From Spirochaetota bacterium (lineage in GTDB: Bacteria > Spirochaetota > Spirochaetia > CADAEX01): a DNA stretch of 64,000 bases. A model generated the notes under the pieces. That model saw only the letters and a program-made list of their open reading frames with translations, made no database searches and had not been told where the DNA came from. Both the position numbers and the translations under genes were made by a program. This document shows positions 1,286 through 64,000 of this stretch, in pieces. How positions within the stretch are numbered: the stretch's first letter is position 1; every line of letters begins with the position of its first letter. The stretch lies in contig WQTU01000136.1 in assembly GCA_009786125.1 (NCBI GenBank), forward strand, positions 88 through 64,087, read 5' to 3'.

Positions 1286-1663
1286 TTAGGGTTTGAATTT
1301 CTGTATTTGTATGTTTAGTATAAATTTATAATGCTTGTCGTTTGCTGTCAACAAAGTCTCATTTCTTTCTAATACTGTTGCTGCTATCATGGCATCAGTT
1401 AACTCCAGTGAATGACTTAAGTTATAGTTTTCCACAAGATACATCGCGTAAGTTGATATAGTCTCATTAATCGGAATAATTTCTACACCCCATTTTTTTA
1501 ATTGCTTTTGCAAGATGCCCAGATCTTTCTTGTTTTGTAACCCTTGTATTAATTCTAAATATGTTATGACCGAAATTTTGAATGGAATATTATCGAAAAT
1601 TATTTTTTTGGCATGAGTGTTTCCTCGCAAGTACCAGATTAATACATCTGTATCAATTATCAA
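1286..1663 (-). CDS. vapC: PIN-domain toxin (VapC family)
   Basis: 125 aa. 'MIIDTDVLIWYLRG' N-terminus with acidic residues typical of PIN. Overlaps the upstream antitoxin gene by 11 nt. Confidence 0.85.
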   Translation of the reverse strand: MIIDTDVLIWYLRGNTHAKKIIFDNIPFKISVITYLELIQGLQNKKDLGILQKQLKKWGVEIIPINETISTYAMYLVENYNLSHSLELTDAMIAATVLERNETLLTANDKHYKFILNIQIQKFKP

Positions 1664-2393: not shown

Positions 2394-2434
2394 GCTGATT
2401 TATTCTCGATTGAATAAATCAGCGGTTCCCTAGA
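2394..2434. promoter_or_regulatory. Palindromic motif GCTGATTTATTC-TCGATT-GAATAAATCAGC + GGTTCCCTAGA (copy 1)
   Basis: Perfect 12-bp inverted repeat with a 6-nt spacer. The 33-mer 2402-2434 recurs at 62379-62411 with one substitution. Both copies lie upstream of + strand genes for exported proteins. Confidence 0.5.
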
Positions 2435-15460: not shown

Positions 15461-17674
15461 ATGGAAAGCATGGATTTGTTTTCATCTTCAATAAATAACA
15501 GAGAATTTCCCCTTGCAGCAAGAATGCGCGCCGAAACCCTTGATGATTTTATAGGGCAGGAACACCTTGTAGGAAAAGGCAGGCTTTTGCGCCGGGCAAT
15601 TCAGGCAGACCAGCTCTCATCTCTTATTTTTTACGGTCCGCCCGGGACAGGAAAAACAACCCTTGCCCAGATTATTGCAAAAACAACAAAGAGCGCATTT
15701 GTTACCATCAATGCTGTGTTATCCGGCGTAAAAGAGATAAGAGATGAAATTATCGAAGCGAAGAAGCGGCTCGAATTGCATGACAAAAAAACAATACTTT
15801 TTGTAGATGAAGTTCACAGGTGGAACAAAGCTCAGCAGGATGCCTTGCTTCCCTGGGTTGAAAACGGAACATTTATACTGATAGGAGCAACAACAGAGAA
15901 TCCTTTTTACGAGGTAAACTCTGCGCTCGTTAGCCGAAGCAGAATATTTCAGCTTCTGCCGCTTTCAAAAGAAAATCTCCTAAAAGCAGCAGCAAGAGCC
16001 CTTGCAGATAAAGAAAAAGGATATGGCAAATATAAAGTAGTATTTGAAGAAGGGGCGCTCGAACATATTGCAGACATTGCAAACGGAGATGCCCGAACCC
16101 TCTACAATGCTCTCCAGCTTGCAATCGAGACAACGCCAAAACAATTTCCACCGCCGGATGGCGAAATAATATATATAAGCATGGAGACAGCAGAAGACAG
16201 TATACAGCGGAAAGTTCTTCTTTATGACAAAGAAGGAGATTATCATTTTGACATTATAAGTGCATTTATAAAATCAATAAGAGGTTCTGACCCGGATGCA
16301 ACCTTGTACTGGCTTGCAAGAATGCTTGATGCAGGTGAAGATCCAAAGTTTATACTAAGGCGTTTGACTATTTCTGCAGCCGAAGACATAGGGCTTGCGG
16401 ATCCCAATGCGCTTGTAGTCGCCAATGCGGCAGCTCAGGCTTTTGAGCGCATTGGAATGCCGGAGGGGCAGATTATTCTCTCCGAAGCTGCTCTGTATCT
16501 TGCGTGCACAAAAAAGTCAAATTCTGTTCTGGCGATTTTTAATGCACTTAAAACAATAAAAGAAGAAAAGCACATGGAAGTACCGGCTAACATAAAGGAC
16601 TCTTCCAGGGACAAAGAAAGTTTTGGTCACGGCAAGAATTATCTCTACCCGCACGATTACAAAGAGCGCTGGGTTGCGCAGCAGTATTTACCCGATGCTC
16701 TAAAGGGCAAAGTTTTTTATGAGCCGGGCGACATAGGTTTTGAAGCAGAACTAAAGAAAGATATTTTCCGCAGAAGAGAAGCGCAAATAGAAGCCCAAAT
16801 GGAAAGAGATGATTTTAGCCAGGAAACCCTGACCTTTTCTCCTCCGGATAAAAAGAAAGATGAATGGTATAAACGAATCTCAGACAATAAAAATATAATT
16901 TTATCTGCTGTCCGTGAAAGAATTTTCTCGCAGGTTAATATAAACCGTCACGACAGAATTCTGATAACCAGCCGCGACAGGGGGCTTTTAATCTGGGAAG
17001 CAATAAGGCATGTGCCGGAAGGCGGAGTGTTTTATGTAAATAACGACAAACGCGACATAGAAATTATCGACAAGCACTCGATATATACCGAGAAAACAGA
17101 AAAACCAATATTGATTAACGAAAGCCCCGCAGATTACTTGCGTAACGAAAAAGAAACCGGAATCTATGATATTATAGCGGGGCGAAATCTGTTTTTAAAA
17201 CAGAGCAATGTCAAGCAAATATCAGAGAGGCTGTTTGCTCTTTTGGATGCAAAAGGCAGAATTTCGCTTGCAGAAAACCTGGCATCAAAATCTTCGAGAA
17301 TATCGCAATTTTTGGACAGGACTGTTTTTGAAGAAGGTGATTTTGATATTTTTTTGAATGCAGAAAAAACTGTTTATGAAGAAAGCAAATATGGAATATA
17401 TCTGGATACAGAGGGGCTGGAAAAAGTGCTCCATGAAACAGGGTTTAAAAAAATAAAATTCAGGGAAAAAGAGTGGTTTGAAACCCGTGTTATAAATAAA
17501 AACGACGTAGAAAAATGGTTTGACGAGTCGCTGGAAAGTTATGGCTCGATTCTTCTTTCTTTGGTCGAGGGGCATTTGTATGAGAGGGTAAAGGAGCAGG
17601 CATTAAAAACCCTGCCGGATAAAGAGATAAAGTGGAAAAGCACTTACCTTTTTGTCGCTGCGGGGAAGGAGTAG
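15461..17674 (+). CDS. rarA: Replication-associated recombination protein A (AAA+ ATPase) with ~290-aa C-terminal extension
   Basis: Walker A 'GPPGTGKTT', 'LFVDEVHRWNK', and the MgsA C-terminal block 'SDPDATLYWLARML..GEDP.FILRRL' up to ~aa 445. This is followed by an extra domain ('RILITSRDRGLLIWEAI..'). Confidence 0.85.
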   Translation: MESMDLFSSSINNREFPLAARMRAETLDDFIGQEHLVGKGRLLRRAIQADQLSSLIFYGPPGTGKTTLAQIIAKTTKSAFVTINAVLSGVKEIRDEIIEAKKRLELHDKKTILFVDEVHRWNKAQQDALLPWVENGTFILIGATTENPFYEVNSALVSRSRIFQLLPLSKENLLKAAARALADKEKGYGKYKVVFEEGALEHIADIANGDARTLYNALQLAIETTPKQFPPPDGEIIYISMETAEDSIQRKVLLYDKEGDYHFDIISAFIKSIRGSDPDATLYWLARMLDAGEDPKFILRRLTISAAEDIGLADPNALVVANAAAQAFERIGMPEGQIILSEAALYLACTKKSNSVLAIFNALKTIKEEKHMEVPANIKDSSRDKESFGHGKNYLYPHDYKERWVAQQYLPDALKGKVFYEPGDIGFEAELKKDIFRRREAQIEAQMERDDFSQETLTFSPPDKKKDEWYKRISDNKNIILSAVRERIFSQVNINRHDRILITSRDRGLLIWEAIRHVPEGGVFYVNNDKRDIEIIDKHSIYTEKTEKPILINESPADYLRNEKETGIYDIIAGRNLFLKQSNVKQISERLFALLDAKGRISLAENLASKSSRISQFLDRTVFEEGDFDIFLNAEKTVYEESKYGIYLDTEGLEKVLHETGFKKIKFREKEWFETRVINKNDVEKWFDESLESYGSILLSLVEGHLYERVKEQALKTLPDKEIKWKSTYLFVAAGKE

Positions 17675-21268: not shown

Positions 21269-22540
21269 ATGTATTTTTCAAGGCCAATGAATCTAGGCAT
21301 TATTGGTTGTCCGGGGGCGGATCATTTTACGAATGATATTGTTCACAATCTTAAGAGATATTACAGCCGCAAACACCAGCAGCATATTGATCTTATATCA
21401 AAAACGTATGGAATTGAAAAAAATGAGATCGAAAGAAAGATCAATTTATTAAAAGATATTCAAAATGCCAATCTTTGGGAAGATCTCAATAGATATCCGG
21501 ATATTGAAAAATATCGAGTCCCTGAGTTTAAAGTTCCTGTAAAATATACAAGATTTGCCAATGGCGAATACAAAGCAGATATAAAAAAATCTGTAAGAGG
21601 AATGGATGTTTACATTGTCCAGGATGTTGAAAATCATTATGGCATAGATATAAATGAGGACGGCAAAGAACATAAACTCTCTGTAAACGACCATGTTTTT
21701 ATGCTGTTTGCGACAATTGATGCAGTAATACAATCCGGAGCAAGCTTTGTATCTGTTGTTGTGCCTGCTTATCCGTATGCGCGCCAGCATAAACGCAAAG
21801 GAAGAGAAGCTCTTACAGCAGCTCTTTTTGGAAGAATAATCGAAAACATGGGAGTCGCCCGAATAATCACTCTAGATATACACTCCAAAGAAATAGAAAA
21901 CTGTTTTAACAAGTGCAGAATGGAAGATCTTCATGCATCATATCAGATAATAAAAATGCTTTTTAACTTTATTGATGTAGAGAAATCAAATTTAGTTATT
22001 GTTTCGCCTGACTCAGGAGCTGTTGAAAGAAACAAGTTTTTTGCTGATAACCTCAAAAAACCGCTTGCCATGCTTTACAAAGAAAGAGACTATTCCAAAA
22101 TTTCCAGCGATGCAAAAGCAAGCAATATTACAGAGATGAAGCTGCTGGGAGATGTAAAGGGAAAAACAGTTTTTATGGCAGACGATATGGTAGGGACCGG
22201 CGGAACAATGATTGAAGCAATGCGGCGTCTTCGGGAACTTGGCGCAGAAAAAATTATTTGCGCAATAAGCCTTCCGCTTTTTACAGGCAATGCTATTGAA
22301 AATTTTGATAAAGCTTACAGAGACGGTTACTTCGATAAAGTAATAGGAACAAATGCCGTGTATCATACAGATGCGCTTTACGCAAAAGAGTGGTATGTAA
22401 GCGCCCCGATATCAAACCTCTTTGCCCGTGTTATTTCAAGATTGCATCAGCAGAGAACTTTAACTCCATTGATTGACAACAGCGAAATAATTCAGCGCCT
22501 GTTAAGCGACCCTCAAATTACTTTTTCTTATGGCTTATAA
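21269..22540 (+). CDS. prs: Ribose-phosphate pyrophosphokinase (long form)
   Basis: 'RFANGEY', 'PAYPYARQHKR', 'ITLDIHS', and PRPP-binding loop 'MADDMVGTGGT'. Confidence 0.85.
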   Translation: MYFSRPMNLGIIGCPGADHFTNDIVHNLKRYYSRKHQQHIDLISKTYGIEKNEIERKINLLKDIQNANLWEDLNRYPDIEKYRVPEFKVPVKYTRFANGEYKADIKKSVRGMDVYIVQDVENHYGIDINEDGKEHKLSVNDHVFMLFATIDAVIQSGASFVSVVVPAYPYARQHKRKGREALTAALFGRIIENMGVARIITLDIHSKEIENCFNKCRMEDLHASYQIIKMLFNFIDVEKSNLVIVSPDSGAVERNKFFADNLKKPLAMLYKERDYSKISSDAKASNITEMKLLGDVKGKTVFMADDMVGTGGTMIEAMRRLRELGAEKIICAISLPLFTGNAIENFDKAYRDGYFDKVIGTNAVYHTDALYAKEWYVSAPISNLFARVISRLHQQRTLTPLIDNSEIIQRLLSDPQITFSYGL

Positions 22541-24077
22541 AGTTCTTCCCGGCGCTTCATTGCGACATCTCTGTCGCTGCGCCGGGCGCAACGTCCATGT
22601 TGCAGGCGTTGATATTGGAACCTCTTCGATAAAAGCCGGTATAATAGATAAAAAAGGAATTCTTGCATCGTACCGGAAAATTCGCTACGAAGAAATTGGC
22701 GGAGATATTTATAACTGGAAAACTGATTTTTGGGTTAATTCCCTTAAAAAAGCGCTAAAAGAGCTCCCGCTGCTCGAAAAAGCAGAAGCAGTTGTTTTTA
22801 GCGGAAGCGGCCCTTCTGTGATACCTATATGCCGGGACGGCAATTATATGGCCGAGTCTCTATTGTGGCTCGATAATAAAAAAACTGATATAGCCGATAA
22901 CATTTCTTTTTTTCTTCCCAAAATAGCCTGGTATAAAGAAAACAGAAAAGATATTTATGCGAATGTTTCTTGCTTTCTTACGCTATCCGGCTTTTTTCCC
23001 TATTTGCTGACAGGAGAATTAAAAGAACCGCTTCCGAATAAAGAATTTACTCCTTATATATGGACAGAAGATTCCATAAAAAAAGCAGGGCTTGAGCTTA
23101 CTCTTTTTCCGCAATTTGTATTTGCCGGGAATCTTGTGGGTTATGTCTCCGAAAAAAGCAGCAGGGAATTTTATTTGCGAAAAGGGATTCCTGTGTTTGC
23201 CGGAGCCAGCGATTACCTTATGGCTCTTTTGGGAACAGGCGCGCTTTTTGAAGGAGCTGTCTGCGATAGGGCAGGAACTTCAGAGGGTATTAATTATTGC
23301 ACAAAAAAAAATGTAAAAGCAGATACCCTTAGAATACTACCGCATATAATAGAAGATTTTTATAATGTTTCCGGAGTAATTGATTCTTCCGGAAAAAATT
23401 TTAGCTGGTTTAAAAAAATATCAGGACAGGAAGAAAAGTCTTATTCAGAACTTATTGGGGAAATATCTAAGGTTATACACAATGACGACTCGCTCTATTT
23501 TTTACCCAGCGCTCGCTTTGCACGTGCTTTGCACGTTTCGCGGCGCGCCAAGGCACTGCGTCCGTACTCACAAGGGGCACTTTGCCACTGCGCCGGGACG
23601 CAACCTGCTTCGCAATGCTGCAGTCCGGATCTGGGAAGAAATTCTTTGTGGAAGTATAACAACGGCGCATTCACAGGGCTTGAGGTAATGCCGGAAGCAG
23701 GTGCTGCTGTTTTAAAAGCAATTGGTTTTTCTGTATGCGAGGTTATAAGAATTATGGAATCACATTCTCTTGCTGTGGAAGAAATAAGGCTGTCCGGCGG
23801 ACAGGCGGAAATCCCTTTGTGGAACCAGGTAAAAGCAGATATGACAGGAAAAAAACTGCTTGCCCCAGAGGTAAAGGATAGCGAGCTTATAGGGTGTGCG
23901 TGCGTTGCATTTACAGGACTTGGCGTATACAACTCCCTGACGCAAGCATCGCAGGAAATGGTGCGTATAAAAGATGTCTATACGCCTGATGCAAAAGCTT
24001 ATTCCGGGTTCTGTAAGCTCTTTGAAGATTATTCTGATATTTTGCGCAAGTTTGAGCTTTTTGCAAATTCTTTGTAG
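22530..24077 (+). CDS. FGGY-family carbohydrate kinase carrying two in-frame GC-rich repeat insertions
   Basis: 'GVDIGTSSIKAGI' N-terminal motif and C-terminal 'RLSGGQAEIPLWNQVKADMTG'. Start at ATG 22530 or TTG 22560. Confidence 0.8.
   Translation: MAYKVLPGASLRHLCRCAGRNVHVAGVDIGTSSIKAGIIDKKGILASYRKIRYEEIGGDIYNWKTDFWVNSLKKALKELPLLEKAEAVVFSGSGPSVIPICRDGNYMAESLLWLDNKKTDIADNISFFLPKIAWYKENRKDIYANVSCFLTLSGFFPYLLTGELKEPLPNKEFTPYIWTEDSIKKAGLELTLFPQFVFAGNLVGYVSEKSSREFYLRKGIPVFAGASDYLMALLGTGALFEGAVCDRAGTSEGINYCTKKNVKADTLRILPHIIEDFYNVSGVIDSSGKNFSWFKKISGQEEKSYSELIGEISKVIHNDDSLYFLPSARFARALHVSRRAKALRPYSQGALCHCAGTQPASQCCSPDLGRNSLWKYNNGAFTGLEVMPEAGAAVLKAIGFSVCEVIRIMESHSLAVEEIRLSGGQAEIPLWNQVKADMTGKKLLAPEVKDSELIGCACVAFTGLGVYNSLTQASQEMVRIKDVYTPDAKAYSGFCKLFEDYSDILRKFELFANSL
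22562..22608. repeat. GC-rich repeat module (E3) inside the FGGY kinase N-terminus
   Basis: The 47-mer GCGACATCTCTGTCGCTGCGCCGGGCGCAACGTCCATGTTGCAGGCG matches the reverse complement of 60434-60480 at 41 of 47 positions, counted by hand. Confidence 0.85.
23508..23633. repeat. GC-rich mosaic repeat (E4) inserted in frame in the FGGY kinase
   Basis: 23512-23537 resembles the 3' module of 61775-61897 (TCGCTTTGC.CGTGCTTTGCACGT). 23597-23623 matches 6023-6049 at 24 of 27 positions. It encodes about 41 atypical Cys/Arg/Ala-rich residues. Confidence 0.8.
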
Positions 24078-25486: not shown

Positions 25487-25509
25487 AAGATAAAATTATT
25501 TTTTATTTA

Positions 25510-25676
25510 CCGATGAAGCGAGAACCGCGGACAAGCGAAGCTTGCACATGGTCGAGCGAGGAGGTAAACAAAAGGTTCGCGTGAGCGTACCTCGCTGCAA
25601 GCAGCGGAATCCGCGCCAAAGGCGCGGTGGGCGCAGGGCAAGCCCTGCGGTCGCTTTGCACGTAATACCTTTTATT
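25510..25676. repeat. Full-length GC-rich repeat element (E5), intergenic nusG-rplK
   Basis: The 5' end CCGATGAAGCGAG, the middle GAGCGAGGAGGTAAACAAAAGGTTCGCG, and the 3' end GGTCGCTTTGCACGTAATACCTTTTAT are shared with 61775-61897 and partly with 52216-52282 and 36969-37212. Contains several perfect 7-bp hairpins. Confidence 0.85.
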
Positions 25677-36495: not shown

Positions 36496-36966
36496 ATGTC
36501 TAGAAAAATTACTTCAAAGAAGTCCGGAATTATTCCTGATCCAAAATATAACAGTACATCTATTGCCAAATTTATTACAAGAATGATGGTAAGCGGAAAA
36601 AAATCCGTAAGCAAAACCATAATGTATGGGGCGCTTGATGTATTGAGTTCTAAAACCCAAAAAGGAGCTGTTGAAGCATTCGGCGAAGCAATGGATAGGA
36701 TAAAACCTCTTGTCGAGGTAAAGTCGAGAAGGGTTGGCGGCTCTACTTATCAGGTTCCTGTTGAAATAAGGGAGTCAAGAAGAGAAGCTCTTGCAACCCG
36801 CTGGATAATTCAGGCAGCAAGGTCGAGAAGCGGCAGGTCAATGAGTGAAAAGCTTGGAGCAGAGCTGGTGGATGCTTTTAACTCTACAGGAACAGCTTTC
36901 AAGAAAAAAGAAGATACACATAAAATGGCAGAAGCAAATAAAGCTTTTTCTCATTATAGGTGGTAA
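36496..36966 (+). CDS. rpsG: 30S ribosomal protein S7
   Basis: 'PDPKYNS..', '[12 protein letters not shown]', C-terminal 'AFSHYRW'. Confidence 0.98.
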
Positions 36967-36968
36967 TC

Positions 36969-37212
36969 ACGACGAACGAGGGTCGCGGGCAAGCAGAGCT
37001 TGCACATGACCGAGTGAGGAAGTGATTGAAAAGCTGAAAGGCTTTTTCTGTTCTCCGACGAAGCGAGGGTCGCGGGCAAACGAAGTTTGTACATCCGCCG
37101 AATAAGTGAGAGTCGCGGGCAGCTTGCTTGCACACAAAGTACCCCTTGCGGGTGTGATCGAACGATGAGGTGGACAAAGGGGCTATGCTCCTTGTGAATC
37201 GGGCTAGGAGGA
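36969..37212. repeat. Cluster of GC-rich repeat units (E7) directly after rpsG
   Basis: Two or three tandem units: CGACGAACGAGGGTCGCGGGCAAGCAGAGCTTGCACATGACCGAGTGAGGAAG (36970-37022), CGACGAAGCGAGGGTCGCGGGCAAACGAAGTTTGTACAT (37057-37095), and GAGAGTCGCGGGCAGCTTGCTTGCACA (37109-37135). Confidence 0.85.
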
Positions 37213-52206: not shown

Positions 52207-52215
52207 AGTTTATTT

Positions 52216-52282
52216 GCCGACGAAGCGAGGGATGTGTTAAACAAAAGGTTGCGAAAAAAGGTTACGAAGCATACCTTTTATA
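52216..52282. repeat. Short variant of the GC-rich repeat element (E8) after rplQ
   Basis: It keeps the 5' end GCCGACGAAGCGAGGG, the middle TAAACAAAAGGTTGCG and the 3' end CATACCTTTTAT of the 25510-25676 element. Most of the interior is missing. Confidence 0.75.
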
Positions 52283-52453: not shown

Positions 52454-55366
52454 ATGACAATTATAAAAAAAGCTGCAATAAGTTTAGTTATTACTCTGAT
52501 CGTATTCTCAGCTTTCACAATAATATCTTTTTTTACTCTCTTTGATCTTATAGAATCAAGATTCTATAACAAAAAAGTGCTTACCGAAGTAGAAAACAGA
52601 ATTGAAAACATCATAATTGGGATAGAAGAATATAAAAATGATCGCATTGAAATACTTACTGCAGTTTCAAATGAAGCAGCCATAAGAAACAGTTTTCTTA
52701 TAAATCAAAGCAGAGAAGACATCTTTCAGAGAGAAAATATAATAAAATCCTTGATTGAGCGAAGAGTGGATTTTGATTTTATCAGAGTTATTGATGATGC
52801 CGGGAGAATCCACTACAGCAGCAATCCTATTGACCTGCAATCTGCTGACCCCACAAGAATATCTTATAGAATACTGGATGCGCAGTCTATTGAAAGATAT
52901 AGAGAAATTATCGAGCGCGCAGGTGATATCCCGGCCATTTTTTTTGACATTCAAGACCACAATCTGTTTGTAGCTTCTGTTTACAGCCATATAGGAATAA
53001 GAAGAGGCACAATTTTAGTATATCTTGCACCAAATGATTTAAGAAGTTTTCTTGCCCGAAAAAATGTTATTGAAAGAAATATTGTTATAAGGTATTTGGC
53101 TCATAATAAAATTGTTTTTAATATACTTGATGGCAACATCTCTATTCTGGAAGAACTAAAAGCTTATTGGACAGCCGGAGAAATAAGAAACCCTCATAAT
53201 CTCTATTCTGATGCTGCCGGAACTGCCTTTTCTGTTGTTACAAAAAGATGGGGCGATGGCTTTATAGGATATGTTATCCCCGATCATCTTATAAAAATTA
53301 ATGCTATTTATAAATATATTCTTCTCTTTTCGGTATTTTCAATTACATTTATACTTTCTTTCCTGCTGATGAATATAAGGCAGGATCAGGTAGTTGTTAT
53401 AGCTGACAGGGTAAAACGATTCCAGATAAATTTTCTTATTGAATATCTTGAAAATAAAAGCGAAGTCGAATGGAGAGTATGGAAAAAAGAACTGGAAAGC
53501 CGCAAAGAAGAATTACGCAGGGAATTTAAGAAAGGTATAAGAAGATTAGACGAAGATAAAGATAAGATTGTAAATGATCTTGTTGATAAAAGCTGGGACG
53601 AGATAATAAGCCTTCTCGCAGGACATCTGGAAAAAAAATCTGAAAGTAAAAATTTAGTTACAAATCTCCAGGTTGATAATATTGAAGAAATAATCAGAAA
53701 AATTATTGCAAGTGAAAATAATATACGAAGAAAAGATATCAATACTGTTTCAAGCCCGCAAGTTGTTGCACAAGTTGCCGAGGTCGCAGGCGCGGATGCG
53801 GAAGAAGAACTTGAGGAAATAGAGGAAGCGGATGAGGTCGCAGACGCGGTTGAGGAAGCAGAGGAACTCGAAGACGCGGACTTAGAAGAAATAGAGGAAG
53901 CGGAAGCGGTCGAAGTCGCAGTAGAAGAAGAGCTGGAAAGAATCGAAGAAGCTGCAAAAGTTTCAGTTAGGGAAGCAGACAAAGAATCTGCAACAGCAGA
54001 ACCTTTATTGGATGAAAATAAAAAATTCGAAGAGCTTATAACTACTTATAAAGATTATGGCGAAGAAATTGCAAACGCAAAAGAAATTCAAAATACTGTT
54101 GAAGAAATTGAAAGGACTATTGTTCCAATTACCGATGACCAAGATGAAGCAGATCTGAAAAAACTTACATCATTCAGAGATGGATTAGAAAACGATGATA
54201 CAAACATTCCTGAATTAATAGAAGAAGAACTTCTGGACGAAGAAGATATGGCAGATCTCGAAGATCTTGACATTGAAGAAGCAGAAATGCTGGAAGAAAA
54301 ATCAGTATATGAAAAAGTACCTAAAAAATATGTTTCTGAAACTGAAAAAATAGAAAACCTTGAAACAATAGGGGATTTTAAACCACTTGTTATAGACAGT
54401 GAATTCGAAGAGCTTGAAGTTCTTGAAAAAACTGAAGCAGATGAAGATGATGACGATAAAGCCAGAATAGTAGAATACATAAGAAATGACATAGTTGGTG
54501 TATATAAGCCGAATTATATGCCTGATTTTTTTTATTCCAGGAAAAAAACAGAAAAAAAAGAAGAAGATTTTGCAGGCGAAATTTCAGAGGAAAAAATCGA
54601 AACTTGCGGCAGCCCTAAAGCATCTTCTGCAAAACATCTTGAAACATTAAAAAAAGAAGGGCTTCTGGAAATATGGACAATAAAAGATGTTATTAAAATA
54701 ATAGAAGAAAAAAAAGAATCTCCTGTAATAGAAAAAGATGGAATTCTTAAAATAAGTGAAAATCTGTATAACGATGGCAATACTTCAAAAAATGCTGACG
54801 AAGATAACGAAATAGGTATTTCAGATATCTTTTTTGATGATGCAATAGATTTACCTGTCTTTTCAGATGCATCTGCAGATGCTCCTGTTGCTGACGAAAA
54901 ATATGCTGATATAAAAATTAGTGAAGAATATGGTTTCTATGCTGATATTTTCTATGATCACAATGAAAATAACCCTATTGAAATTATAAAAATTTTATTT
55001 GAAATAACAAAAAAAATGGGTTCTTCTTTCGGTGTTATATTAGTACAAAATGATAAAAAGTATTATCCGGAAGTATCTGTAGGGCTTTTTAACAAAGATT
55101 ACCCGGAACTACTTAGGATAAATAAAGATTCTTATCTTTTTAGAGAATTTCTTGCAGAGAGAAAAATTTTCTTTATAAAGACCGATATTACTGAACTAGA
55201 AGAGCTTAATACCAAATTTTCACCGAATGATCTTAAAAAAATCAATGGTCTTCTGTTTGCTCCAATGAGATATAAAGGAAAGCAAGCCTATTTTGTGGCT
55301 GCCCCGGACGCAAAAGACTTCTATCTGGATAGCGTTATACTAAAAGTTAAAAATTTCCAAAAATGA
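52454..55366 (+). CDS. Large membrane-anchored acidic protein: TM, extracytoplasmic domain, TM, Glu/Asp-rich region, and possible GAF-like C-terminus
   Basis: 970 aa. TM segments near aa 8-30 and ~285-305. Extreme acidic low-complexity region aa ~435-700. The C-terminal ~170 aa looks globular, and the GAF-like guess is weak. Confidence 0.75.
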   Translation: MTIIKKAAISLVITLIVFSAFTIISFFTLFDLIESRFYNKKVLTEVENRIENIIIGIEEYKNDRIEILTAVSNEAAIRNSFLINQSREDIFQRENIIKSLIERRVDFDFIRVIDDAGRIHYSSNPIDLQSADPTRISYRILDAQSIERYREIIERAGDIPAIFFDIQDHNLFVASVYSHIGIRRGTILVYLAPNDLRSFLARKNVIERNIVIRYLAHNKIVFNILDGNISILEELKAYWTAGEIRNPHNLYSDAAGTAFSVVTKRWGDGFIGYVIPDHLIKINAIYKYILLFSVFSITFILSFLLMNIRQDQVVVIADRVKRFQINFLIEYLENKSEVEWRVWKKELESRKEELRREFKKGIRRLDEDKDKIVNDLVDKSWDEIISLLAGHLEKKSESKNLVTNLQVDNIEEIIRKIIASENNIRRKDINTVSSPQVVAQVAEVAGADAEEELEEIEEADEVADAVEEAEELEDADLEEIEEAEAVEVAVEEELERIEEAAKVSVREADKESATAEPLLDENKKFEELITTYKDYGEEIANAKEIQNTVEEIERTIVPITDDQDEADLKKLTSFRDGLENDDTNIPELIEEELLDEEDMADLEDLDIEEAEMLEEKSVYEKVPKKYVSETEKIENLETIGDFKPLVIDSEFEELEVLEKTEADEDDDDKARIVEYIRNDIVGVYKPNYMPDFFYSRKKTEKKEEDFAGEISEEKIETCGSPKASSAKHLETLKKEGLLEIWTIKDVIKIIEEKKESPVIEKDGILKISENLYNDGNTSKNADEDNEIGISDIFFDDAIDLPVFSDASADAPVADEKYADIKISEEYGFYADIFYDHNENNPIEIIKILFEITKKMGSSFGVILVQNDKKYYPEVSVGLFNKDYPELLRINKDSYLFREFLAERKIFFIKTDITELEELNTKFSPNDLKKINGLLFAPMRYKGKQAYFVAAPDAKDFYLDSVILKVKNFQK
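53775..53950 (+). repeat. Imperfect tandem coding repeats (period ~72 nt) encoding EEIEEA(D/E)-type acidic units
   Basis: GAGGAAATAGAGGAAGCGGATGAGGTCGCAGACGCGG (53813-53849) versus GAAGAAATAGAGGAAGCGGAAGCGGTCGAAGTCGCAG (53885-53921). Confidence 0.7.
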
Positions 55367-58747: not shown

Positions 58748-61396
58748 TTATAGGTTACATTTTCCCGCAAGACTTGATGCAGTTTTTACAGCTTCAACGC
58801 CATCCTTCGAGTAAGCTGCGCCTATTGATTCTGCCCACTCTTTTGTAACAACTGCTCCGCCAACCATAAAGCTGGCTGTTATGCCTTCTTTTTTTGCAAG
58901 TTCAATAACTTCCGGCATTTTTACCATTGTTGTTGTCATAAGCGCAGAGAGCGCAATTATGTCCGGCTCAAACTCTTTTGCATTTTTTATAATCTCGTCT
59001 GCTGGTACAGATTTACCTAGGTCTTTTACATCAAAGCCATAATTGCGCAGCATGAGTATTACAATATTTTTTCCAATGTCGTGTATATCTCCCTCGACAG
59101 TTGCAAAAAGTATTTTGCCTTTTGCACCGGCATTCTTGTCTTCGAGTTTGGGCTCAAGGACAGTGAAGCCTTTTTTCATTGTCTCTGCGCTTGCAATGAG
59201 CTGCGGCAAAAAATACTTTTTCTTGTCGTAAAGCTCGCCCACATGCATAATTGCGGGAATCATTATTTTTTCGAGAATATCTTTTGGCGCTGTGTTGAGC
59301 TCAAGTGTTTTCTGCACATGAGTTATTATGTCATCGCGGTTGCCGGAAACAATGCAGTCGAAGACTGGGCTTGTTGCTGCGTTTGCACCAGCGCTTGCGT
59401 CTGCGTCTGCGGCTGTGTCTGCACTTGCGTCCGGGCTTGCGCCAGCGCCTTTCGCAGCAGGGTGGGGCATGGGCTGTATGCTGTTGGGCATAATGCCGGG
59501 GTCCGGGTTTGCCGAAGCAAATTTAAGATACGCCAGCGCATCAACATCTTTGCCGGTTAGCAGGTCGGATGCATGTTTTGCCCACATTAGCTCGATTTCT
59601 CCGGGATTTGCAATTACATGGGTCATTCCATACGCAGCAGCCATTGAAAGAAAAGCAGAGTTTATTCTTTTTCTCTCCGGCAGCCCGAAAGAAACATTAG
59701 AAAGCCCGGCTAACGAAGAAAAGCCGTTTTCTGCAGCCCATTTTATTGTTTTAAGTGTTTCCAGCGGAGCCTGCTGGTTCGATGAGACAGTCATAACAAG
59801 CCCGTCTATAATTATATCGTTTTTTGTAAAGCCCAGTTTTTCTGCCTCATTATAAACTTCTTTTATAATTTCGATTCTTCGTTCTGCTGTCTCGGGGAGT
59901 TCGTTGTCCGCAAGAGGCAGCAGAACGAACATTGCGCCGTATTTTGCCGCAACAGGCAGGAGTTTTTCGATTTTTTCTTTTTCCCCGGATATTGAATTTA
60001 TTAAAGCTCTTCCGGGATATTTTCTGAGAGCTGCTTCTACTACTTCTGGCGACGCAGAATCTATTACAAGCGGCAGTTTGCACCAAGGCGCAAGCATGTC
60101 GATTATTTTAATTACTGTATTTTTTTCGTTAATGCCGGGCATCCCTGCGTTTATGTCTAACATGCTTGCGCCGGAGGCTTCCTGTTCCATTGCCATTTTG
60201 CGTACCAGCGACAGTTTGCCCTCAAGCATTTCTGATTGAAGCCTTTTCTTGCCCGTAGGATTTATGCGCTCGCCGATAACCTGCAGCCCTGACTTTTTGT
60301 TTACGATAAGGGCTTCGGTTGCGCTCGAAAGTGCAACAATATCTTTGGCAAAAAAGCAGTTCTTCCTGGTTTTGACCTTGACTTCGCCGCGGGCTTCGGT
60401 TTGGGTTTGCGGAGCTGCGGCTTGGGGTAAAAGCGGCTGCAACACGGATGTTGCGCTCGGCGCAGCGACATGGATGTCGCAATAAGGCTCCGGTTTGTAT
60501 TGCGCAAGCTCTTTTGCAAGCAGTTTTATGTGCTGCGGAGTTGTGCCGCAGCAGCCGCCCATAAGATTGATTCCCGCGCTTGCAAAAGATTCTGCGAAGG
60601 ATGCAAATTCTTCCGGTCCCATTGGAAAAATGGTTTTGCCGGATTCTATTCTTGGCATTCCGGCATTTGGCTTTGCAACCAGAGGAACTTTCGAAATAGG
60701 TTTAAGACGTTCTATTATTTTTAGCATTTCTGCAGGGCCGGAAGAGCAATTGCAGCCAACAGCATCTGCTCCAAGGCTTTGAAGCGTTATTAGCGCAGCT
60801 TCCGGCGATGTTCCGTTAAGCGTTCTGCCTTCCGGCTCATAAGTCATTGTTACTATCGTAAAAGCATCAGTGAGTTCTTTAACGGCGATTAACGCTGCAC
60901 GCGCTTCCTGAATATCCATCTGCGTTTCTATTACAAAAAGATCGCAGCCGCCGTCCAGCAATCCTCTTGCCTGACGCTTAAACATTTTTACAGCATCTTC
61001 AAACCTGATTTCCCCAAAAGGCTCGATAAAATGCCCTATGGGTCCAATATCGCCTGCAACAAGCGTATTTTCTCCTCCTGCTTTTTTTGCCGCCTGCGCA
61101 AGAATCGAATTTATATTTTCTACATCGTCCCGGCCGTATAACGCAAGTTTATAAAAATTCGCCCCAAATGTGCATGTATAAATTATGTCCGACCCTACCT
61201 CGGAATAGCTTTTATAAATTGCCCTTTGGATTTCCTTGTTCTCGCTTGCCCATATTTCCGGGCACACTCCTGCGGGCATTCCTTTTTTCTGGAGTTCTGT
61301 TCCTGTTGCTCCGTCGAGCACAAGAATTTTGTTTTTAAGCAATTCCGAAATTACTTTTTTATCTGTCATATATTCCCTTCTTAGTTTATTAAACAA
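58748..61396 (-). CDS. metH: Cobalamin-dependent methionine synthase lacking the AdoMet activation domain
   Basis: 882 aa. Hcy-methyltransferase N-terminus ('LDGATGTEL', 'GGCCGTTP'), pterin-binding domain, and B12-binding domain ('GDIHDIGKNIV'). Two GC-rich low-complexity linkers. Confidence 0.92.
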   Translation of the reverse strand: MFNKLRREYMTDKKVISELLKNKILVLDGATGTELQKKGMPAGVCPEIWASENKEIQRAIYKSYSEVGSDIIYTCTFGANFYKLALYGRDDVENINSILAQAAKKAGGENTLVAGDIGPIGHFIEPFGEIRFEDAVKMFKRQARGLLDGGCDLFVIETQMDIQEARAALIAVKELTDAFTIVTMTYEPEGRTLNGTSPEAALITLQSLGADAVGCNCSSGPAEMLKIIERLKPISKVPLVAKPNAGMPRIESGKTIFPMGPEEFASFAESFASAGINLMGGCCGTTPQHIKLLAKELAQYKPEPYCDIHVAAPSATSVLQPLLPQAAAPQTQTEARGEVKVKTRKNCFFAKDIVALSSATEALIVNKKSGLQVIGERINPTGKKRLQSEMLEGKLSLVRKMAMEQEASGASMLDINAGMPGINEKNTVIKIIDMLAPWCKLPLVIDSASPEVVEAALRKYPGRALINSISGEKEKIEKLLPVAAKYGAMFVLLPLADNELPETAERRIEIIKEVYNEAEKLGFTKNDIIIDGLVMTVSSNQQAPLETLKTIKWAAENGFSSLAGLSNVSFGLPERKRINSAFLSMAAAYGMTHVIANPGEIELMWAKHASDLLTGKDVDALAYLKFASANPDPGIMPNSIQPMPHPAAKGAGASPDASADTAADADASAGANAATSPVFDCIVSGNRDDIITHVQKTLELNTAPKDILEKIMIPAIMHVGELYDKKKYFLPQLIASAETMKKGFTVLEPKLEDKNAGAKGKILFATVEGDIHDIGKNIVILMLRNYGFDVKDLGKSVPADEIIKNAKEFEPDIIALSALMTTTMVKMPEVIELAKKEGITASFMVGGAVVTKEWAESIGAAYSKDGVEAVKTASSLAGKCNL
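60434..60480. repeat. GC-rich repeat module inside the metH Hcy/pterin linker
   Basis: The reverse complement GCGACATCCATGTCGCTGCGCCGAGCGCAACATCCGTGTTGCAGCCG matches 22562-22608 at 41 of 47 positions. It is translated in a different frame from that copy. Confidence 0.85.
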
Positions 61397-62150
61397 TTCC
61401 TGTTAATGCAATAACTGATTTTTGCGGTATAAGCAAAAAGCTTTCTGTTATATTAACTTCTATTTTTTTCATTTCAAGCAAATTGTAAAAGATTTTTTGT
61501 GTTTCAAGCGATAGGTCTCCGTATCCGGGAGAAAATCTTTTGGAAAAAAGCTTTTCTGATTTTCTTATAAGCTCTTTGCTGTAAAGAGACATAATGTAAT
61601 CCAGCCCCCTGTCTGCAATTTCGCCTGCTGCTGCGTCAAGAACAACAGCTTTGGTCATGTTTTCCTTCTGTTCTTTCTCTATAAAATCCGCTATTTCTTT
61701 GCCGCATGTTATTCCCATCAGCAGAATTTTATTCGCTCCGGAGATGAATTTGCATAATGAGCTGCTTATTATTTCCGAATGAAGCGAGTGTCGCGACGTG
61801 CTTGCACGCTCGTGACCGAGCGAATGAGGAAACAAAGGGTCGCGCAGGGCTCTGCCTTGCGGTCGCTTTGCGCGTGCTTTGCACGTAATACCCTTTATCT
61901 CAATTTTTTCTGATGGGGCTGCCTGACTTGCAGCAGGATATATCAGAATTTTATCCTGATCCGCGACTTCAAAATTACTTTCCAGCATTACGCCTTTTAA
62001 GTTTACAAGAGAGGCTGTCTCATCAATCCATGCTACAATCTCTTTTCTGCTTGATTCAGCAAGTTCTGTTTCTTTTTGTCTATACCCCAGCCGAGAGAAA
62101 ATAACTCTATAATCTGGCTTGGGCAATATATTATTGATAAACCTGAGCAT
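61389..62150 (-). CDS. Stand-alone methionine synthase activation-domain protein with in-frame GC-rich element
   Basis: The C-terminal 'RFSPGYGDLSLETQKIFYNLL' is typical of Met_synt_B12. 8-nt overlap with metH. Carries a 41-codon foreign-looking insert. Confidence 0.8.
   Translation of the reverse strand: MLRFINNILPKPDYRVIFSRLGYRQKETELAESSRKEIVAWIDETASLVNLKGVMLESNFEVADQDKILIYPAASQAAPSEKIEIKGITCKARAKRPQGRALRDPLFPHSLGHERASTSRHSLHSEIISSSLCKFISGANKILLMGITCGKEIADFIEKEQKENMTKAVVLDAAAGEIADRGLDYIMSLYSKELIRKSEKLFSKRFSPGYGDLSLETQKIFYNLLEMKKIEVNITESFLLIPQKSVIALTGIV
61775..61897. repeat. GC-rich repeat element (E9), 123 nt, in frame within the activation-domain gene
   Basis: CCGAATGAAGCGAG...GGTCGCTTTGCGCGTGCTTTGCACGTAATACCCTTTAT. 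Both termini and the central AAACAAAGGGTCGCG are shared with 25510-25676. Confidence 0.85.
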
Positions 62151-62350: not shown

Positions 62351-62411
62351 GCTGATTGCCCATTCGGGATGCTTTGCGATTCTCGATTGAATAAATCAGC
62401 GGTTTCCTAGA
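62351..62411. promoter_or_regulatory. Copy 2 of the palindromic motif, left arm split by a 21-nt GC-rich insertion
   Basis: 62379-62411 ATTCTCGATTGAATAAATCAGCGGTTTCCTAGA matches 2402-2434 at 32 of 33 positions. The left-arm remnant GCTGATT lies at 62351-62357, followed by GCCCATTCGGGATGCTTTGCG. Confidence 0.5.
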
Positions 62412-63203: not shown

Positions 63204-64000
63204 TTAATTACCTATAACAATTCCGGTTAAATAAGCGTTAATACCCCTTGCCAGTTCCGCAGAGAGCTGTCTTTGAAATTCTCTGAAAGCAACTGTTTCT
63301 GCCTGTGTTTCTGTTAAGCCATTTTCGCGCGCATCTCTGAAGAATGTTGCAATAGTTGTATCTGCTTCATCAAAAAGAGATATATTTGCTATCCAGTTCA
63401 CAGATCTAAAATTGGGATTTACGGTAACAGGAGTAACAGACCATGTTCCACGGAAAACCATGCTGCCGTTGGGGCTGTAAGATATTGCCTGCCCGCTCAT
63501 TGCTTCCCGCACAATTCCTGCAATTCTTCCGTCTGTATCTCCGTCGATTGCTATGCGGTAAGACAAGTTTGCCGCTTCCCTGTCTCTTGCTGCAGTAAAT
63601 TTTCTTAAATCAAGTTCCATTTCCATCATGGCTGCCATTGGCGGAAAAATAATGCGAAGCTGATCAATCATTCGTTCTGCATTAAGCGCCATAATATATG
63701 CAGCATCGAAAAACGCATAACGTCTAAGCGAGCCAACTGCAGTATTTGCTCTGCGGAAATAATCTTCTGCTTTTTCCAAATCTCTTCTTATTAAGTCTCT
63801 GTAGATTAAGGCTGTTGGCTGCCTTTCGAGATAAGCAACAACATGAGTTGTTCCTGTTCTGTCTATATAGGGGTCAGAAAATTTCAAATTTATAAATGTT
63901 TGATCTGCTTGCGTGCCTATTGTGTGGTTAAGCATTGTCATTATTTCCCTGTAACGCTGATCCCCTCTGATAAGTTCTGCATATCTTTCCTGAGCAACGG
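63204..64000 (-). CDS. Hypothetical protein, N-terminus beyond the window edge
   Basis: By hand translation, the minus-strand frame stays open upstream of the Met at 63941 all the way to nt 64000 (..VAQERYAELIRGDQRYREI-MTML..). No family recognised. Confidence 0.6.
   Translation of the reverse strand, partial: VAQERYAELIRGDQRYREIMTMLNHTIGTQADQTFINLKFSDPYIDRTGTTHVVAYLERQPTALIYRDLIRRDLEKAEDYFRRANTAVGSLRRYAFFDAAYIMALNAERMIDQLRIIFPPMAAMMEMELDLRKFTAARDREAANLSYRIAIDGDTDGRIAGIVREAMSGQAISYSPNGSMVFRGTWSVTPVTVNPNFRSVNWIANISLFDEADTTIATFFRDARENGLTETQAETVAFREFQRQLSAELARGINAYLTGIVIGN

What the first reader, a model, noticed from the sequence alone, without database searches (positions are those of the whole stretch)
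61775..61897. Complete 123-nt repeat element inserted in frame in the methionine synthase activation protein
This element shares both termini and its core with the intergenic copy at 25510-25676. It lies inside the ORF in the orientation whose translation is open ('KGITCKARAKRPQGRALRDPLFPHSLGHERASTSRHSLHSE'). On my boundary definition it is 41 codons long, so the downstream activation-domain sequence stays in frame.

The intergenic copy is also open in the same orientation and starts with the same 'IKGITCKA'. This suggests selection for, or survival of, an ORF-compatible strand, as described for Rickettsia palindromic elements.
Basis: partly seen in the sequence, partly recalled or inferred. 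Interest (0 to 1): 0.8.

Follow-up and report, generated by a model that had tools for sequence, protein, structure and literature searches.

The report
Small repeat inserted in-frame in gene
A 122-base, hairpin-forming, GC-rich repeat of a spirochaete genome has landed inside the gene for the methionine-synthase reactivation protein without breaking the reading frame, adding a floppy 42-residue loop; this kind of event is already known from Rickettsia and other bacteria, but this repeat family and its several in-frame insertions in spirochaete housekeeping genes do not appear to have been described.

Summary
Window 61773-61894 is a 122-nt member of a dispersed, GC-rich, hairpin-forming repeat family. 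It is flanked by TTAT on both sides. It lies inside the intact 253-aa stand-alone MetH activation-domain gene (61389-62150, minus strand).

Against orthologues the net gain is 126 nt (42 codons), not 123 nt (41 codons). Both are multiples of three. The insert sits in a loop that is hypervariable among orthologues and is predicted to be disordered.

The Rickettsia-like reading is only partly supported:
- The family is mostly intergenic.
- Intergenic copies mostly have lengths that are not multiples of three.
- The closest relative lies in frame in a phosphopantetheinyl transferase gene. It has the same orientation but a different reading frame.
- A fragment in an FGGY kinase gene lies in the opposite orientation.
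- No conserved insert peptide was found among 1.84 billion representative proteins.

The best explanation is a mobile MITE/REP-like element that survived at a permissive site because it kept the frame and carried no stop codon. One strand shows a weak depletion of stop codons.

The same window holds three further in-frame repeat-related insertions (MetH linker, FGGY kinase twice), plus a fourth GC-rich expansion in MetH of unproven origin. I class this as a new member of a known kind, of moderate interest.

The parts
61773..61894 (+). Focal repeat element proper (122 nt, 59% GC). It has a left three-helix module and a right stem-loop module. It is written in the family's + orientation; the host gene reads the opposite strand.
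   Evidence: Family alignment A5; profile hit E 1e-32; boundaries from the empty-site comparison; folds.
61769..61772 (.). Left TTAT flank. This is the target tetranucleotide, present once in the inferred empty site.
   Evidence: I read TTAT at both flanks in 10 of 12 family copies from the sequences.
61895..61898 (.). Right TTAT flank. It is either the duplicated target or the element's own 3' end. With it the net gain is 126 nt, or 42 codons.
61389..62150 (-). Host gene: stand-alone MetH activation (AdoMet-binding) domain protein, 253 aa. The insert-derived residues are about 86-127.
   Evidence: AlphaFold2 mean pLDDT is 80.8, with residues 76-101 and 108-121 below 50. Foldseek best hit 1j6r_A. 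A gene caller on the longer contig also calls a 253-aa gene here.
58748..61369 (-). metH (873 aa), with Hcy, pterin, B12-cap and B12 domains and no activation domain. It lies immediately downstream of the host gene. It carries its own in-frame extra segments.
   Evidence: Pfam. BLASTP against the L065 orthologue shows 77% identity and 43 extra aa in the Hcy/pterin linker.
25507..25671 (+). Intergenic family copy (165 nt) between nusG and rplK. TTAT lies at 25503-25506 and 25672-25675.
   Evidence: flanking genes.
52214..52277 (+). Short degenerate intergenic family copy (64 nt), flanked by TTAT on both sides.
36965..37195 (+). Compound intergenic array of left-module-like units. Modules are nested and adjacent.
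60434..60493 (-). 60-nt multi-hairpin repeat, translated in frame inside the metH Hcy/pterin linker. The same unit is nested inside a family copy at the end of L074.
   Evidence: Inverted pair I1, 85% complementary.
22548..22604 (+). The same 60-nt repeat type, translated in frame near the N-terminus of an FGGY kinase. It adds 19 aa, in a different frame from the metH copy.
23511..23630 (+). A 40-aa in-frame insert in the same FGGY kinase. Its start carries the family's right-end motif GCTTTGCACGTGCTTTGCACGT, in the opposite orientation relative to the host gene from the focal copy.
   Evidence: Direct-repeat family D9, 93% over 28 nt.

Best explanation
The feature is a copy of a small, non-autonomous, GC-rich, hairpin-forming dispersed repeat. 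The family is MITE/REP-like and modular, and belongs to an AT-rich (40% GC) spirochaete lineage.

**Inferred history**
- The element inserted at a TTAT in the coding sequence of the stand-alone MetH reactivation-domain gene.
- The gain was 126 nt: 122 nt of element plus one TTAT.
- The strand that came to be read has no stop trinucleotides.
- The gene therefore stayed open and now encodes about 42 extra residues rich in Arg, Ser and His.

**Why it persists**
- The extra residues lie in a loop between two beta strands.
- That loop varies in length among orthologues and is predicted to be disordered.
- The insertion is therefore most likely tolerated, and it persists as a passenger.
- Genic copies are the survivors of a filter (length a multiple of three, no stop codon, permissive site), not products of a coding function of the element.

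**Status of each step**
- Shown: family membership, the insertion point, frame preservation, the permissive loop, the differing frames and orientations of other genic copies, and the conserved secondary structure of the left module.
- Inferred: mobility, the transposition chemistry (a 4-bp target duplication, or IS200/IS605-like insertion 3' of TTAT), neutrality, and expression as one protein.
For: **Family and spread**
- Copies with shared ends lie at unrelated loci in the window and in other contigs.
- I read TTAT on both sides in 10 of 12 copies.

**Insertion point**
- Orthologue DNA gives the empty site, with a 4-nt overlap between the left and right flanks.
- Orthologues of 206-208 aa lack any insert.

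**Permissive site**
- Other orthologues carry unrelated inserts or tandem repeats in the same loop: P0002, P0005, P0007 and P0016, with P0014's just upstream.
- The AlphaFold2 model has pLDDT below 50 over residues 76-101 and 108-121 and above 90 on both sides.
- The fold still matches the MetH activation domain structures 1j6r and 1msk.

**Filter rather than design**
- Genic copies add 126 and 177 nt. Intergenic copies add 76, 76, 76, 72, 169 and 68 nt.
- The L075 phosphopantetheinyl transferase copy is 92-96% identical in the shared modules but is read in another frame.
- The FGGY kinase fragment is read from the other strand.
- There is no conserved insert peptide in 1.84 billion representative proteins.
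- Most copies are intergenic, and no frame-breaking genic copy was seen in about 80 kb of this genome.

**Structure is what is conserved**
- The left module has 19 base pairs in three helices, and 12 pairs show compensatory changes.
- 94.7% of cells are paired, against 79% in shuffles and 26-45% in slid controls.
Against: - No empty-site allele of this gene from a close relative is available. The nearest orthologue is 66% identical, so the empty site is an inference.
- No transposase or autonomous partner was found. Twenty window ORFs were scanned with Pfam, with none found.
- Only about 80 kb of the genome could be examined.
- There are no expression or protein data, so loss of function cannot be excluded.
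- Stop trinucleotides on the read strand are fewer than shuffles predict (0 against 1.85 expected, P 0.07, for this copy). The figures are 0 against 3.6 (P 0.009) for the L075 copy and 1 against 3.6 (P 0.05) for the intergenic copy.
- That depletion leaves room for some element-level bias towards being readable.
Confidence: 0.74

Rival explanations
1. RPE-like coding element. On this view the family has evolved, or is selected for, a stop-free strand so that it can live inside genes, and the inserted peptide contributes something to the host proteins.
For: - Both full-length genic copies lie in the same orientation relative to their host genes.
- That strand has no stop trinucleotide in any of its three frames.
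- The strand is depleted in stops across 8 copies, including intergenic ones: 9 observed against about 21 expected.
- Three further repeat-related in-frame insertions lie in two other genes of the same 64-kb window.
Against: - The two genic copies use different frames.
- A fragment is read from the other strand.
- No conserved peptide exists in public proteins.
- The insert is predicted to be disordered.
- Intergenic copies are the majority and their lengths are mostly not multiples of three.
- The copies are related, so the stop-depletion statistic has an effective sample of perhaps two or three.
Confidence: 0.12
2. Pseudogenising insertion. On this view the gene is inactivated or impaired, and the ORF is still open only because the event is recent.
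For: There are no expression data. The insert adds 42 residues to a roughly 210-aa protein. The Pfam score for the activation domain is below the gathering threshold.
Against: - The ORF is intact from start to stop.
- All 49 alignment-invariant positions are kept, including RFSPGY. From my own knowledge, that motif corresponds to the AdoMet-binding RxxxGY motif of MetH.
- Insert-free orthologues also mostly lack a precomputed Pfam hit, so the weak score is a property of the family.
- The predicted fold outside the loop is confident and matches solved activation domains.
- metH next door lacks its own activation domain, so loss of this gene should be costly.
- The loop tolerates other inserts in orthologues.
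Confidence: 0.08
3. The element acts at the RNA or DNA level inside the gene, for example as an mRNA structure that modulates translation of the activation-gene/metH pair. A more exotic version is that it is skipped or removed so that it never appears in the protein.
For: The left module has a covariation-supported structure. The intergenic copies in the window lie on the same strand as the flanking ribosomal-protein and nusG genes, as REP-like RNA elements would.
Against: - The structure is better on the + strand (z -3.1) than on the mRNA strand of this gene (z -1.8).
- An invariant G-U pair points to the + strand as the folding strand.
- No Rfam family, ribozyme or intron matched.
- Every genic copy keeps the frame and lacks stops, which would be unnecessary if the insert were skipped or excised.
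Confidence: 0.04
4. Assembly artefact: a repeat wrongly placed inside a gene by the metagenome assembler.
For: The source is a metagenome assembly. Short-read contigs from another run tend to end near repeat copies.
Against: - The junctions are clean, in frame and flanked by TTAT, like other family members.
- The same sequence occurs in a second, longer record (122.6 kb) and is identical over the 11.5 kb compared.
- An analogous in-frame copy exists in a different gene on another contig.
Confidence: 0.02

Closest known systems
Rickettsia palindromic elements (RPE; Ogata et al. 2000, as summarised in PMC10969869 and PMC3184786)
   Same: Both are dispersed palindromic repeats of about 100-150 bp. 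Both are found in intergenic DNA and also inserted in frame in unrelated housekeeping genes, at positions compatible with the protein fold. Several genes in one genome are affected.
   Different: - The host is a spirochaete, judging by the names of the homologues' source genomes.
- The element is GC-rich in an AT-rich genome.
- Genic copies do not share a reading frame or a peptide.
- Sequence relatedness to RPEs was not tested.
- Most copies seen here are intergenic.
Intragenic REPs, GTAG- or CGTC-tagged (Di Nocera et al. 2013, PMC3733652), and BIME-like mosaics
   Same: - Both are GC-rich stem-loops scattered through the genome, sometimes grouped or nested.
- Some lie inside coding regions and add 20-30 or more residues.
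- The authors reached the same reading: insertion into unrelated proteins argues against a function, and inactivating insertions are purged.
- The consensus left end here carries GACG (CGTC on the other strand) next to the main stem.
   Different: - The element is longer and modular (64-173 nt), with two distinct end modules.
- The tetranucleotide tag is degenerate in the focal copy (AATG).
- The flanks are TTAT.
- No RAYT gene could be looked for beyond about 80 kb.
Bacterial MITEs with in-frame fusions (ERIC, YPAL/RU, BOX, SPRITE; Delihas 2007 and 2011, PMC3184786; review PMC10969869)
   Same: Both are small non-autonomous repeats with ORF-compatible frames, found fused to or inside genomic ORFs. 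A short direct repeat is present at both flanks.
   Different: The outermost ends are not clean terminal inverted repeats; the inverted repeats are subterminal. No parent insertion sequence is known.
IS200/IS605-family derivatives (palindrome-associated elements mobilised by Y1 transposases)
   Same: - No terminal inverted repeats, and structured subterminal hairpins.
- An invariant tetranucleotide (TTAT) lies immediately 5' of the left end.
- All copies in the window lie on one DNA strand.
   Different: No Y1 transposase was found. A 4-bp target duplication by another kind of transposase explains the flanks equally well. This comparison rests on my general knowledge of the family and on the anatomy only.
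Mobile GC clusters of yeast mitochondrial genomes (from my own knowledge, not checked here)
   Same: Both are GC-rich palindromic mini-elements spreading in AT-rich genomes, occasionally inside protein-coding genes in frame.
   Different: They belong to a different domain of life and there is no sequence relationship. Some mitochondrial elements are bypassed by the ribosome; nothing here suggests bypass.

Membership tests
Rickettsia palindromic elements (RPE) | Dispersed palindromic repeat of about 100-150 bp in many copies | tested here: met
   122-173 nt long forms plus short forms; hairpins; 12 or more copies in the DNA held.
Rickettsia palindromic elements (RPE) | Inserted in frame within protein-coding genes without breaking them | tested here: met
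   MetH activation protein; phosphopantetheinyl transferase in L075.
Rickettsia palindromic elements (RPE) | Copies of one family encode a conserved peptide in one frame | tested here: not met
   The two full genic copies use different frames. There are no true relatives of the insert peptide in 1.84 billion representative proteins.
Rickettsia palindromic elements (RPE) | Sequence relatedness to RPE-1 to RPE-10, and occurrence in Rickettsiales | not testable with these tools
   No RPE sequences or models were at hand, and Rfam returned nothing. Homologues of the window's proteins come from Spirochaetaceae metagenome-assembled genomes.
MITE | Small, non-coding, multi-copy | tested here: met
   64-173 nt; no ORF of its own; multiple loci.
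MITE | Terminal inverted repeats | tested here: inconclusive
   The subterminal arms AAGCGAG..CCGC and GCGG..CGCTT pair in the short form. The outermost bases (TTACCG... and ...ATACCTT) are not inverted repeats.
MITE | Target-site duplication | tested here: inconclusive
   TTAT lies on both sides in 10 of 12 copies, and the empty site inferred from orthologues has one TTAT. This is equally compatible with insertion 3' of TTAT by an element that itself ends in TTAT.
MITE | Cognate autonomous element with the same ends | tested here: not met
   None was found in the window. Twenty ORFs were scanned with Pfam without a transposase hit, and the family profile found none in the other loci. Only about 80 kb of the genome was seen.
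REP / BIME (RAYT-associated) | A 20-40 nt palindrome tagged at one end by GTAG or CGTC (PMC3733652) | tested here: inconclusive
   There is no GTAG. The consensus left end has GACG (the complement of CGTC) abutting the main stem in most copies, but AATG in the focal copy.
REP / BIME (RAYT-associated) | A RAYT gene in the genome | not testable with these tools
   The rest of the genome could not be fetched.
IS200/IS605-derived elements | Insertion 3' of a fixed tetra- or pentanucleotide, no duplication, subterminal hairpins, strand bias | tested here: inconclusive
   - TTAT lies 5' of the left end in 10 of 12 copies.
- Hairpins are supported by covariation.
- All five loci in the window are on the + strand, and GC skew is positive.
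- Duplication cannot be told apart from no duplication.
MetH activation (AdoMet-binding) domain, PF02965 (the host protein) | Fold and conserved motif of the activation domain | tested here: met
   Foldseek 1j6r_A at E 8e-12 and 1msk at E 3e-9. RFSPGY is invariant. Pfam itself scores only 22 bits against a threshold of 25.

The most novel reading that the evidence does not exclude
This spirochaete lineage may carry an undescribed, structurally conserved, mosaic family of GC-rich elements that has colonised coding sequences at a density comparable to RPEs in Rickettsia. Four repeat-related in-frame insertions lie in 3 genes within 64 kb, and there are more on other contigs. One strand of the element may have been shaped to be free of stop codons, so that insertions into genes are survivable. 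That would amount to adaptation at the level of the element to life inside ORFs.
Probability: 0.2. Interest if true: 0.65.

Novelty: new member of a known kind. Interest (0 to 1): 0.42.

Why it matters
In-frame colonisation of genes by small repeats is one way proteins acquire new loops and linkers. The best-studied case, Rickettsia, has long raised the question of whether such elements are adapted to coding regions or are merely filtered by selection.

This family offers an independent case in another phylum:
- Genic and intergenic copies are both present.
- Genic copies use different frames and orientations.
- The element has a structure supported by covariation.
- The target motif is clear (TTAT).

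A genome-wide census could therefore separate the two explanations. There are also practical consequences. These inserts lengthen housekeeping proteins, lower their domain-model scores and break short-read assemblies.

Tried and rejected
- **Rfam.** Gathering thresholds on the whole window, and permissive E-values on both copies, found only tRNAs and noise. The element is therefore not a known RNA family, ribozyme or intron.
- **GTDB representative genomes.** The exact 17-mer gave 64 chance hits, none labelled as a spirochaete in the record titles. Back-translated insert peptide patterns gave 597 pattern hits, none confirmed. The source genome and its element family are not in that set.
- **Close relative L065/L066** (MetH 77% identical). 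No family copies in 20 kb, so the family is lineage-restricted.
- **Insert peptide against 1.84 billion representative proteins.** It found only the window's own protein and three low-complexity proteins that I judged spurious after reading them.
- **Concatenated six-frame translation query.** One real hit, P0244.
- **Excess of open frames.** 3-4 of 6 open against 1.3-2.5 expected, P 0.08-0.17 per copy. Not significant.
- **Transposase search.** Pfam scans of 20 window ORFs found none.
- **Literature.** Searches for such elements in Treponema or termite-gut spirochaetes found nothing relevant.
- **One look-up** of a window protein (63204-63941) found no record.
Full report
**1. What is at the coordinates**

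The window is AT-rich (39.9% GC). Positions 61773-61894 are a 59% GC island inside ORF 61389-62150 on the minus strand (253 aa).

The island shares its left end (TTATTT(A)CCGA.TGAAGCGAG) with the intergenic sequence at 25503-25675. It also shares a central block (GAGCGA..GAGG.AAACAAA.GGT) and its right end (GCTTTGCACGTAATACCYTTTAT). The 17-mer GCTTTGCACGTAATACC occurs exactly twice in the window. With up to three mismatches allowed, 0.09 matches are expected.

**2. It belongs to a dispersed family**

A scan of JGI metagenome contigs with the right end returned six AT-rich contigs (36-46% GC, five of them 36-39%) from one metagenome. Each carries a copy with the same two ends at an unrelated site.

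The copies fall into several forms:
- Four are a short form of about 72 nt (left end plus right end).
- One is a long form like the window's intergenic copy.
- One carries only the right-end motif with other GC-rich hairpins.

A profile built from these copies found further members:
- in the window at 52214-52277;
- in the window's compound array at about 36965-37195;
- as a fragment at 23504-23536;
- three more in locus L075;
- one downstream of the window on the same contig.

The flanks read TTAT|TT(A)CCG...ATACC(Y)T|TTAT. I read TTAT on both sides in 10 of 12 copies.

The family is modular. Long forms carry extra hairpin modules between the same ends. In L074 a separate 60-nt multi-hairpin repeat is nested inside a family copy.

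Rfam has no matching family.

**3. The insertion point**

The host protein has close relatives (56-66% identity) in Spirochaetaceae metagenome-assembled genomes. Those of 206-208 aa have no insert.

DNA of two orthologous loci (L065, L067) aligns on both sides of the island. The orthologues read GAG ATA (ACA/ATC) AGT. The window reads GAG ATA [126 nt] ATA AGC.

On the + strand the inferred empty site is GCTTATTATCTC. The filled site shares 9 nt on the left and 7 nt on the right with it, so 4 nt (TTAT) are counted twice. The coordinates follow:

| Feature | Coordinates | Length |
|---|---|---|
| Left TTAT | 61769-61772 | 4 nt |
| Element proper | 61773-61894 | 122 nt |
| Right TTAT | 61895-61898 | 4 nt |
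| Net gain | | 126 nt (42 codons) |

The frame argument stands.

**4. The host gene and the fate of the protein**

The sequence match to the activation domain is weak: Pfam PF02965 scores 22 bits against a threshold of 25, and NCBIfam metH gives E 0.0018.

The structural match is clear:
- An AlphaFold2 model built on 21 aligned sequences has mean pLDDT 80.8.
- Its best PDB matches are the Thermotoga maritima TM0269 activation domain (1j6r_A, E 8e-12, target TM-score 0.82).
- The E. coli MetH activation domain also matches (1msk, E 3e-9).

The adjacent metH (58748-61369) has the Hcy, pterin and two B12 domains but no activation domain. This is the split arrangement also seen in the orthologous locus L065.

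In the model, residues 76-101 and 108-121 have pLDDT below 50. They lie between strands 67-72 and 125-128. Both sides are above 90.

All 49 columns that are invariant in the alignment are, by definition, kept in the window's protein, including RFSPGY. From my own knowledge, this corresponds to the RxxxGY AdoMet-binding motif of MetH.

The same loop varies in length among orthologues:
- P0002 has an unrelated 37-aa insert.
- P0005 and P0007 have DDVVGNQ tandem repeats.
- P0016 has NPLGY repeats.
- P0014 has three tandem units of about 19 aa just upstream.

The site is therefore permissive.

**5. Testing the 'ORF-compatible strand' idea**

*(a) Composition.* The element has 4 of 6 frames open. 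Dinucleotide shuffles give 2.3 (P 0.11). Other copies are similar.

*(b) Length.* With one TTAT included, lengths are as follows.

| Copies | Lengths (nt) | Multiples of three |
|---|---|---|
| Genic | 126, 177 | both |
| Intergenic | 76, 76, 76, 72, 169, 68 | one of six (72) |

The family has no built-in multiple-of-three length.

*(c) Frame.*
- A query made of all six frames of the family found one real protein, P0244. It is a 4'-phosphopantetheinyl transferase from a Spirochaetes metagenome-assembled genome.
- Its locus L075 comes from the same ENA sample as a 122.6-kb contig that contains the window. That contig is identical to the window wherever I compared them.
- L075 10245-10417 is a 173-nt copy, 92-96% identical to the focal element's two modules.
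- It lies between FNISHSG and GCDIQ. Against Sfp, about 60 residues are extra there.
- It has the same orientation relative to its host gene as the focal copy, but it is read in a different frame (KRYYVQSTRKATA...).

*(d) Orientation.* A 40-aa in-frame insert in the window's FGGY kinase begins with the family's right-end motif read from the other strand: ARFARALHV, against TCKARAKRP in the focal gene.

*(e) Peptide.* The 45-aa insert peptide, searched with HMMER against 1.84 billion representative proteins, found only the window's own protein and three low-complexity repeat proteins that I judged spurious.

*(f) A residual signal.* The strand read in the two genic copies has no stop trinucleotide at all.

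| Copy | Stops observed | Expected from shuffles | P |
|---|---|---|---|
| Focal (window) | 0 | 1.85 | 0.07 |
| L075 | 0 | 3.6 | 0.009 |
| Window intergenic | 1 | 3.6 | 0.05 |

Over eight copies the read strand has 9 stops against about 21 expected. The other strand has 25 against about 32. The copies share ancestry, so this is suggestive only.

Taken together, 'survival of tolerable insertions' is supported. 'A coding element with a selected peptide' is not.

**6. What is conserved is structure**

Seven left modules align to a three-helix structure of 19 base pairs. Twelve pairs show compensatory double changes; the closing stem, for example, is TTTCC/GGAAA, TTTACC/GGTAAA, AATCAC/GTGATT or TTTGTC/GACAAA.

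| Measure | Value |
|---|---|
| Cells paired, observed | 94.7% |
| Cells paired, shuffles | 79% (0 of 500 reach the observed value) |
| Cells paired, partners slid by 1-3 columns | 26-45% |

One pair is G-U in all seven sequences, and the + strand folds better than the mRNA strand of the host gene (z -3.1 against -1.8). The + strand is therefore the one that folds.

The internal loops GA.GAAGCGAG and GAGCGA.GA are conserved in sequence.

This fits an element whose hairpins are recognised during mobilisation, as single-stranded DNA. It also fits an element that acts as an RNA when transcribed from intergenic sites. The intergenic copies at 25.5, 37 and 52 kb lie on the same strand as the flanking ORFs.

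All five family loci in the window are on the + strand, and GC skew is positive across the window.

**7. Mechanism**

The anatomy gives two candidate mechanisms:
- a transposase with a strict TTAT target and a 4-bp duplication;
- an IS200/IS605-type (Y1) single-strand mechanism that inserts 3' of TTAT.

The relevant features are the absence of clean terminal inverted repeats, the structured subterminal hairpins, the TTAT abutting the left end, and the apparent strand bias.

I could not tell the two apart. I also found no transposase in the DNA available.

Mobility itself is inferred from two observations: copies lie at unrelated sites, and the family is absent from a related genome (L065/L066). 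No empty/filled polymorphism was seen.

**8. The wider pattern in the window**

The focal insertion is not alone.
- The window's metH has 43 extra residues in the Hcy/pterin linker relative to a 77%-identical orthologue. Part of this is the 60-nt repeat at 60434-60493.
- The same 60-nt repeat type adds 19 residues near the N-terminus of the FGGY kinase (22548-22604), in another frame.
- The kinase has the second, 40-residue insert described in section 5(d) (23511-23630). Orthologues at 73-77% identity have 459 aa against 515 aa in the window.
- metH also has a 62% GC, roughly 18-residue expansion of its second linker (59335-59522). I could not tie this to any repeat.

No genic copy that breaks a frame was seen in about 80 kb of this genome. 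Filtering predicts this, but the sample is small.

**9. Comparison with what is known**

In-frame fusion of small repeats with genes is established.
- RPEs in Rickettsia are the extreme case (PMC10969869).
- REPs inside coding regions occur in several phyla. The authors of that survey reached the same reading: insertion into unrelated proteins argues against functional constraint, and inactivating insertions are purged (PMC3733652).
- ERIC, YPAL/RU, BOX and SPRITE elements also form fusions (PMC3184786).

The present element works like these. It is not shown to be a member of any named family:
- It fails the RPE feature of a conserved peptide.
- Its terminal inverted repeats and target duplication are ambiguous for a classical MITE.
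- Its end tag is ambiguous for a REP.

I found no description of such elements in spirochaetes in the searchable literature.

**10. Verdict**

- It is a new member of a known kind.
- Interest is moderate. The single insertion is ordinary for this class of element. The family offers an independent system for an old question, because it has several in-frame insertions in housekeeping genes, a covariation-supported structure and a clear target motif.

Noticed in passing
window 22530-24077 (+), inserts at 22548-22604 and 23511-23630: The FGGY-family kinase is 515 aa, against 459 aa in orthologues at 73-77% identity. It has two in-frame GC-rich inserts. One adds 19 aa from a 60-nt multi-hairpin repeat. 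The other adds 40 aa and begins with the focal family's right-end motif read from the other strand.
   Followed up: yes
window 60353-60490 and 59335-59522 (inside metH, minus strand): metH has 43 extra residues in the Hcy/pterin linker, partly the 60-nt repeat at 60434-60493. It also has about 18 extra residues in a 62% GC stretch of the pterin/B12 linker. The second stretch matched no repeat.
   Followed up: partly
window about 36965-37195: A compound array of left-module-like units, nested and adjacent, fills part of the 620-nt spacer between the ORFs ending at 36966 and starting at 37588. I took these for rpsG and tuf from their position and size, without checking.
   Followed up: partly
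window 25507-25671, 36965-37195, 52214-52277, 61773-61894, 23504-23536: All family loci in the window lie in the same orientation on the + strand, and GC skew is positive across the window. This may mean strand-specific insertion, as with single-strand (Y1) transposition.
   Followed up: partly
L075 9799-9895 (minus strand): A family copy overlaps the called start of a DUF3261 lipoprotein-like gene. The called N-terminus (MVAPKPDPKGQTMLAHDRARRQTKGIIPF...) is element-derived, and an internal ATG within the element would give a plausible charged signal-peptide start. The element may supply the start codon.
   Followed up: no
L075 11872-11896: A solo right-end fragment (TTTGCACGTAATACCATTTATT) lies inside a gene with a weak MMPL-domain hit. 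It is read as INGITCKK, which resembles the IKGITCKA of the focal insert.
   Followed up: no
L068 9145-9510: An ORF at the end of the locus carries a copy of the 60-nt repeat type in frame (…RVAAPSATS…). This is the same frame as in the window's metH.
   Followed up: no
orthologues P0002, P0005, P0007, P0014, P0016 (alignment A2): The same loop of the activation protein carries unrelated inserts or tandem repeats in other lineages. Examples are DDVVGNQ units, NPLGY units and three units of about 19 aa. This loop is a hotspot for length change.
   Followed up: partly
window 1109-1142 and 1989-2022: A 34-nt inverted repeat (91% complementary) brackets a PIN-toxin gene and a PhdYeFM-antitoxin gene. 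The gene calls come from L078 and correspond to window 1286-1663 and 1653-1910. This may be a mobile toxin-antitoxin cassette.
   Followed up: no
window 2402-2434 and 62379-62411: A 33-nt direct repeat, 97% identical, lies at two places 60 kb apart. Both appear to be intergenic. It is unrelated to the focal family.
   Followed up: no
window 53759-53930 (inside ORF 52454-55366): Degenerate tandem repeats with periods in multiples of 6 (Glu/Ala/Asp-rich) lie inside a 970-aa protein. The gene call on L080 gives this protein a TP_0593_N domain.
   Followed up: no
window 15461-17674: The MgsA/RarA-like ORF is 737 aa, but its Pfam domains end at residue 435. It has an unexplained C-terminal extension of about 300 aa.
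   Followed up: no
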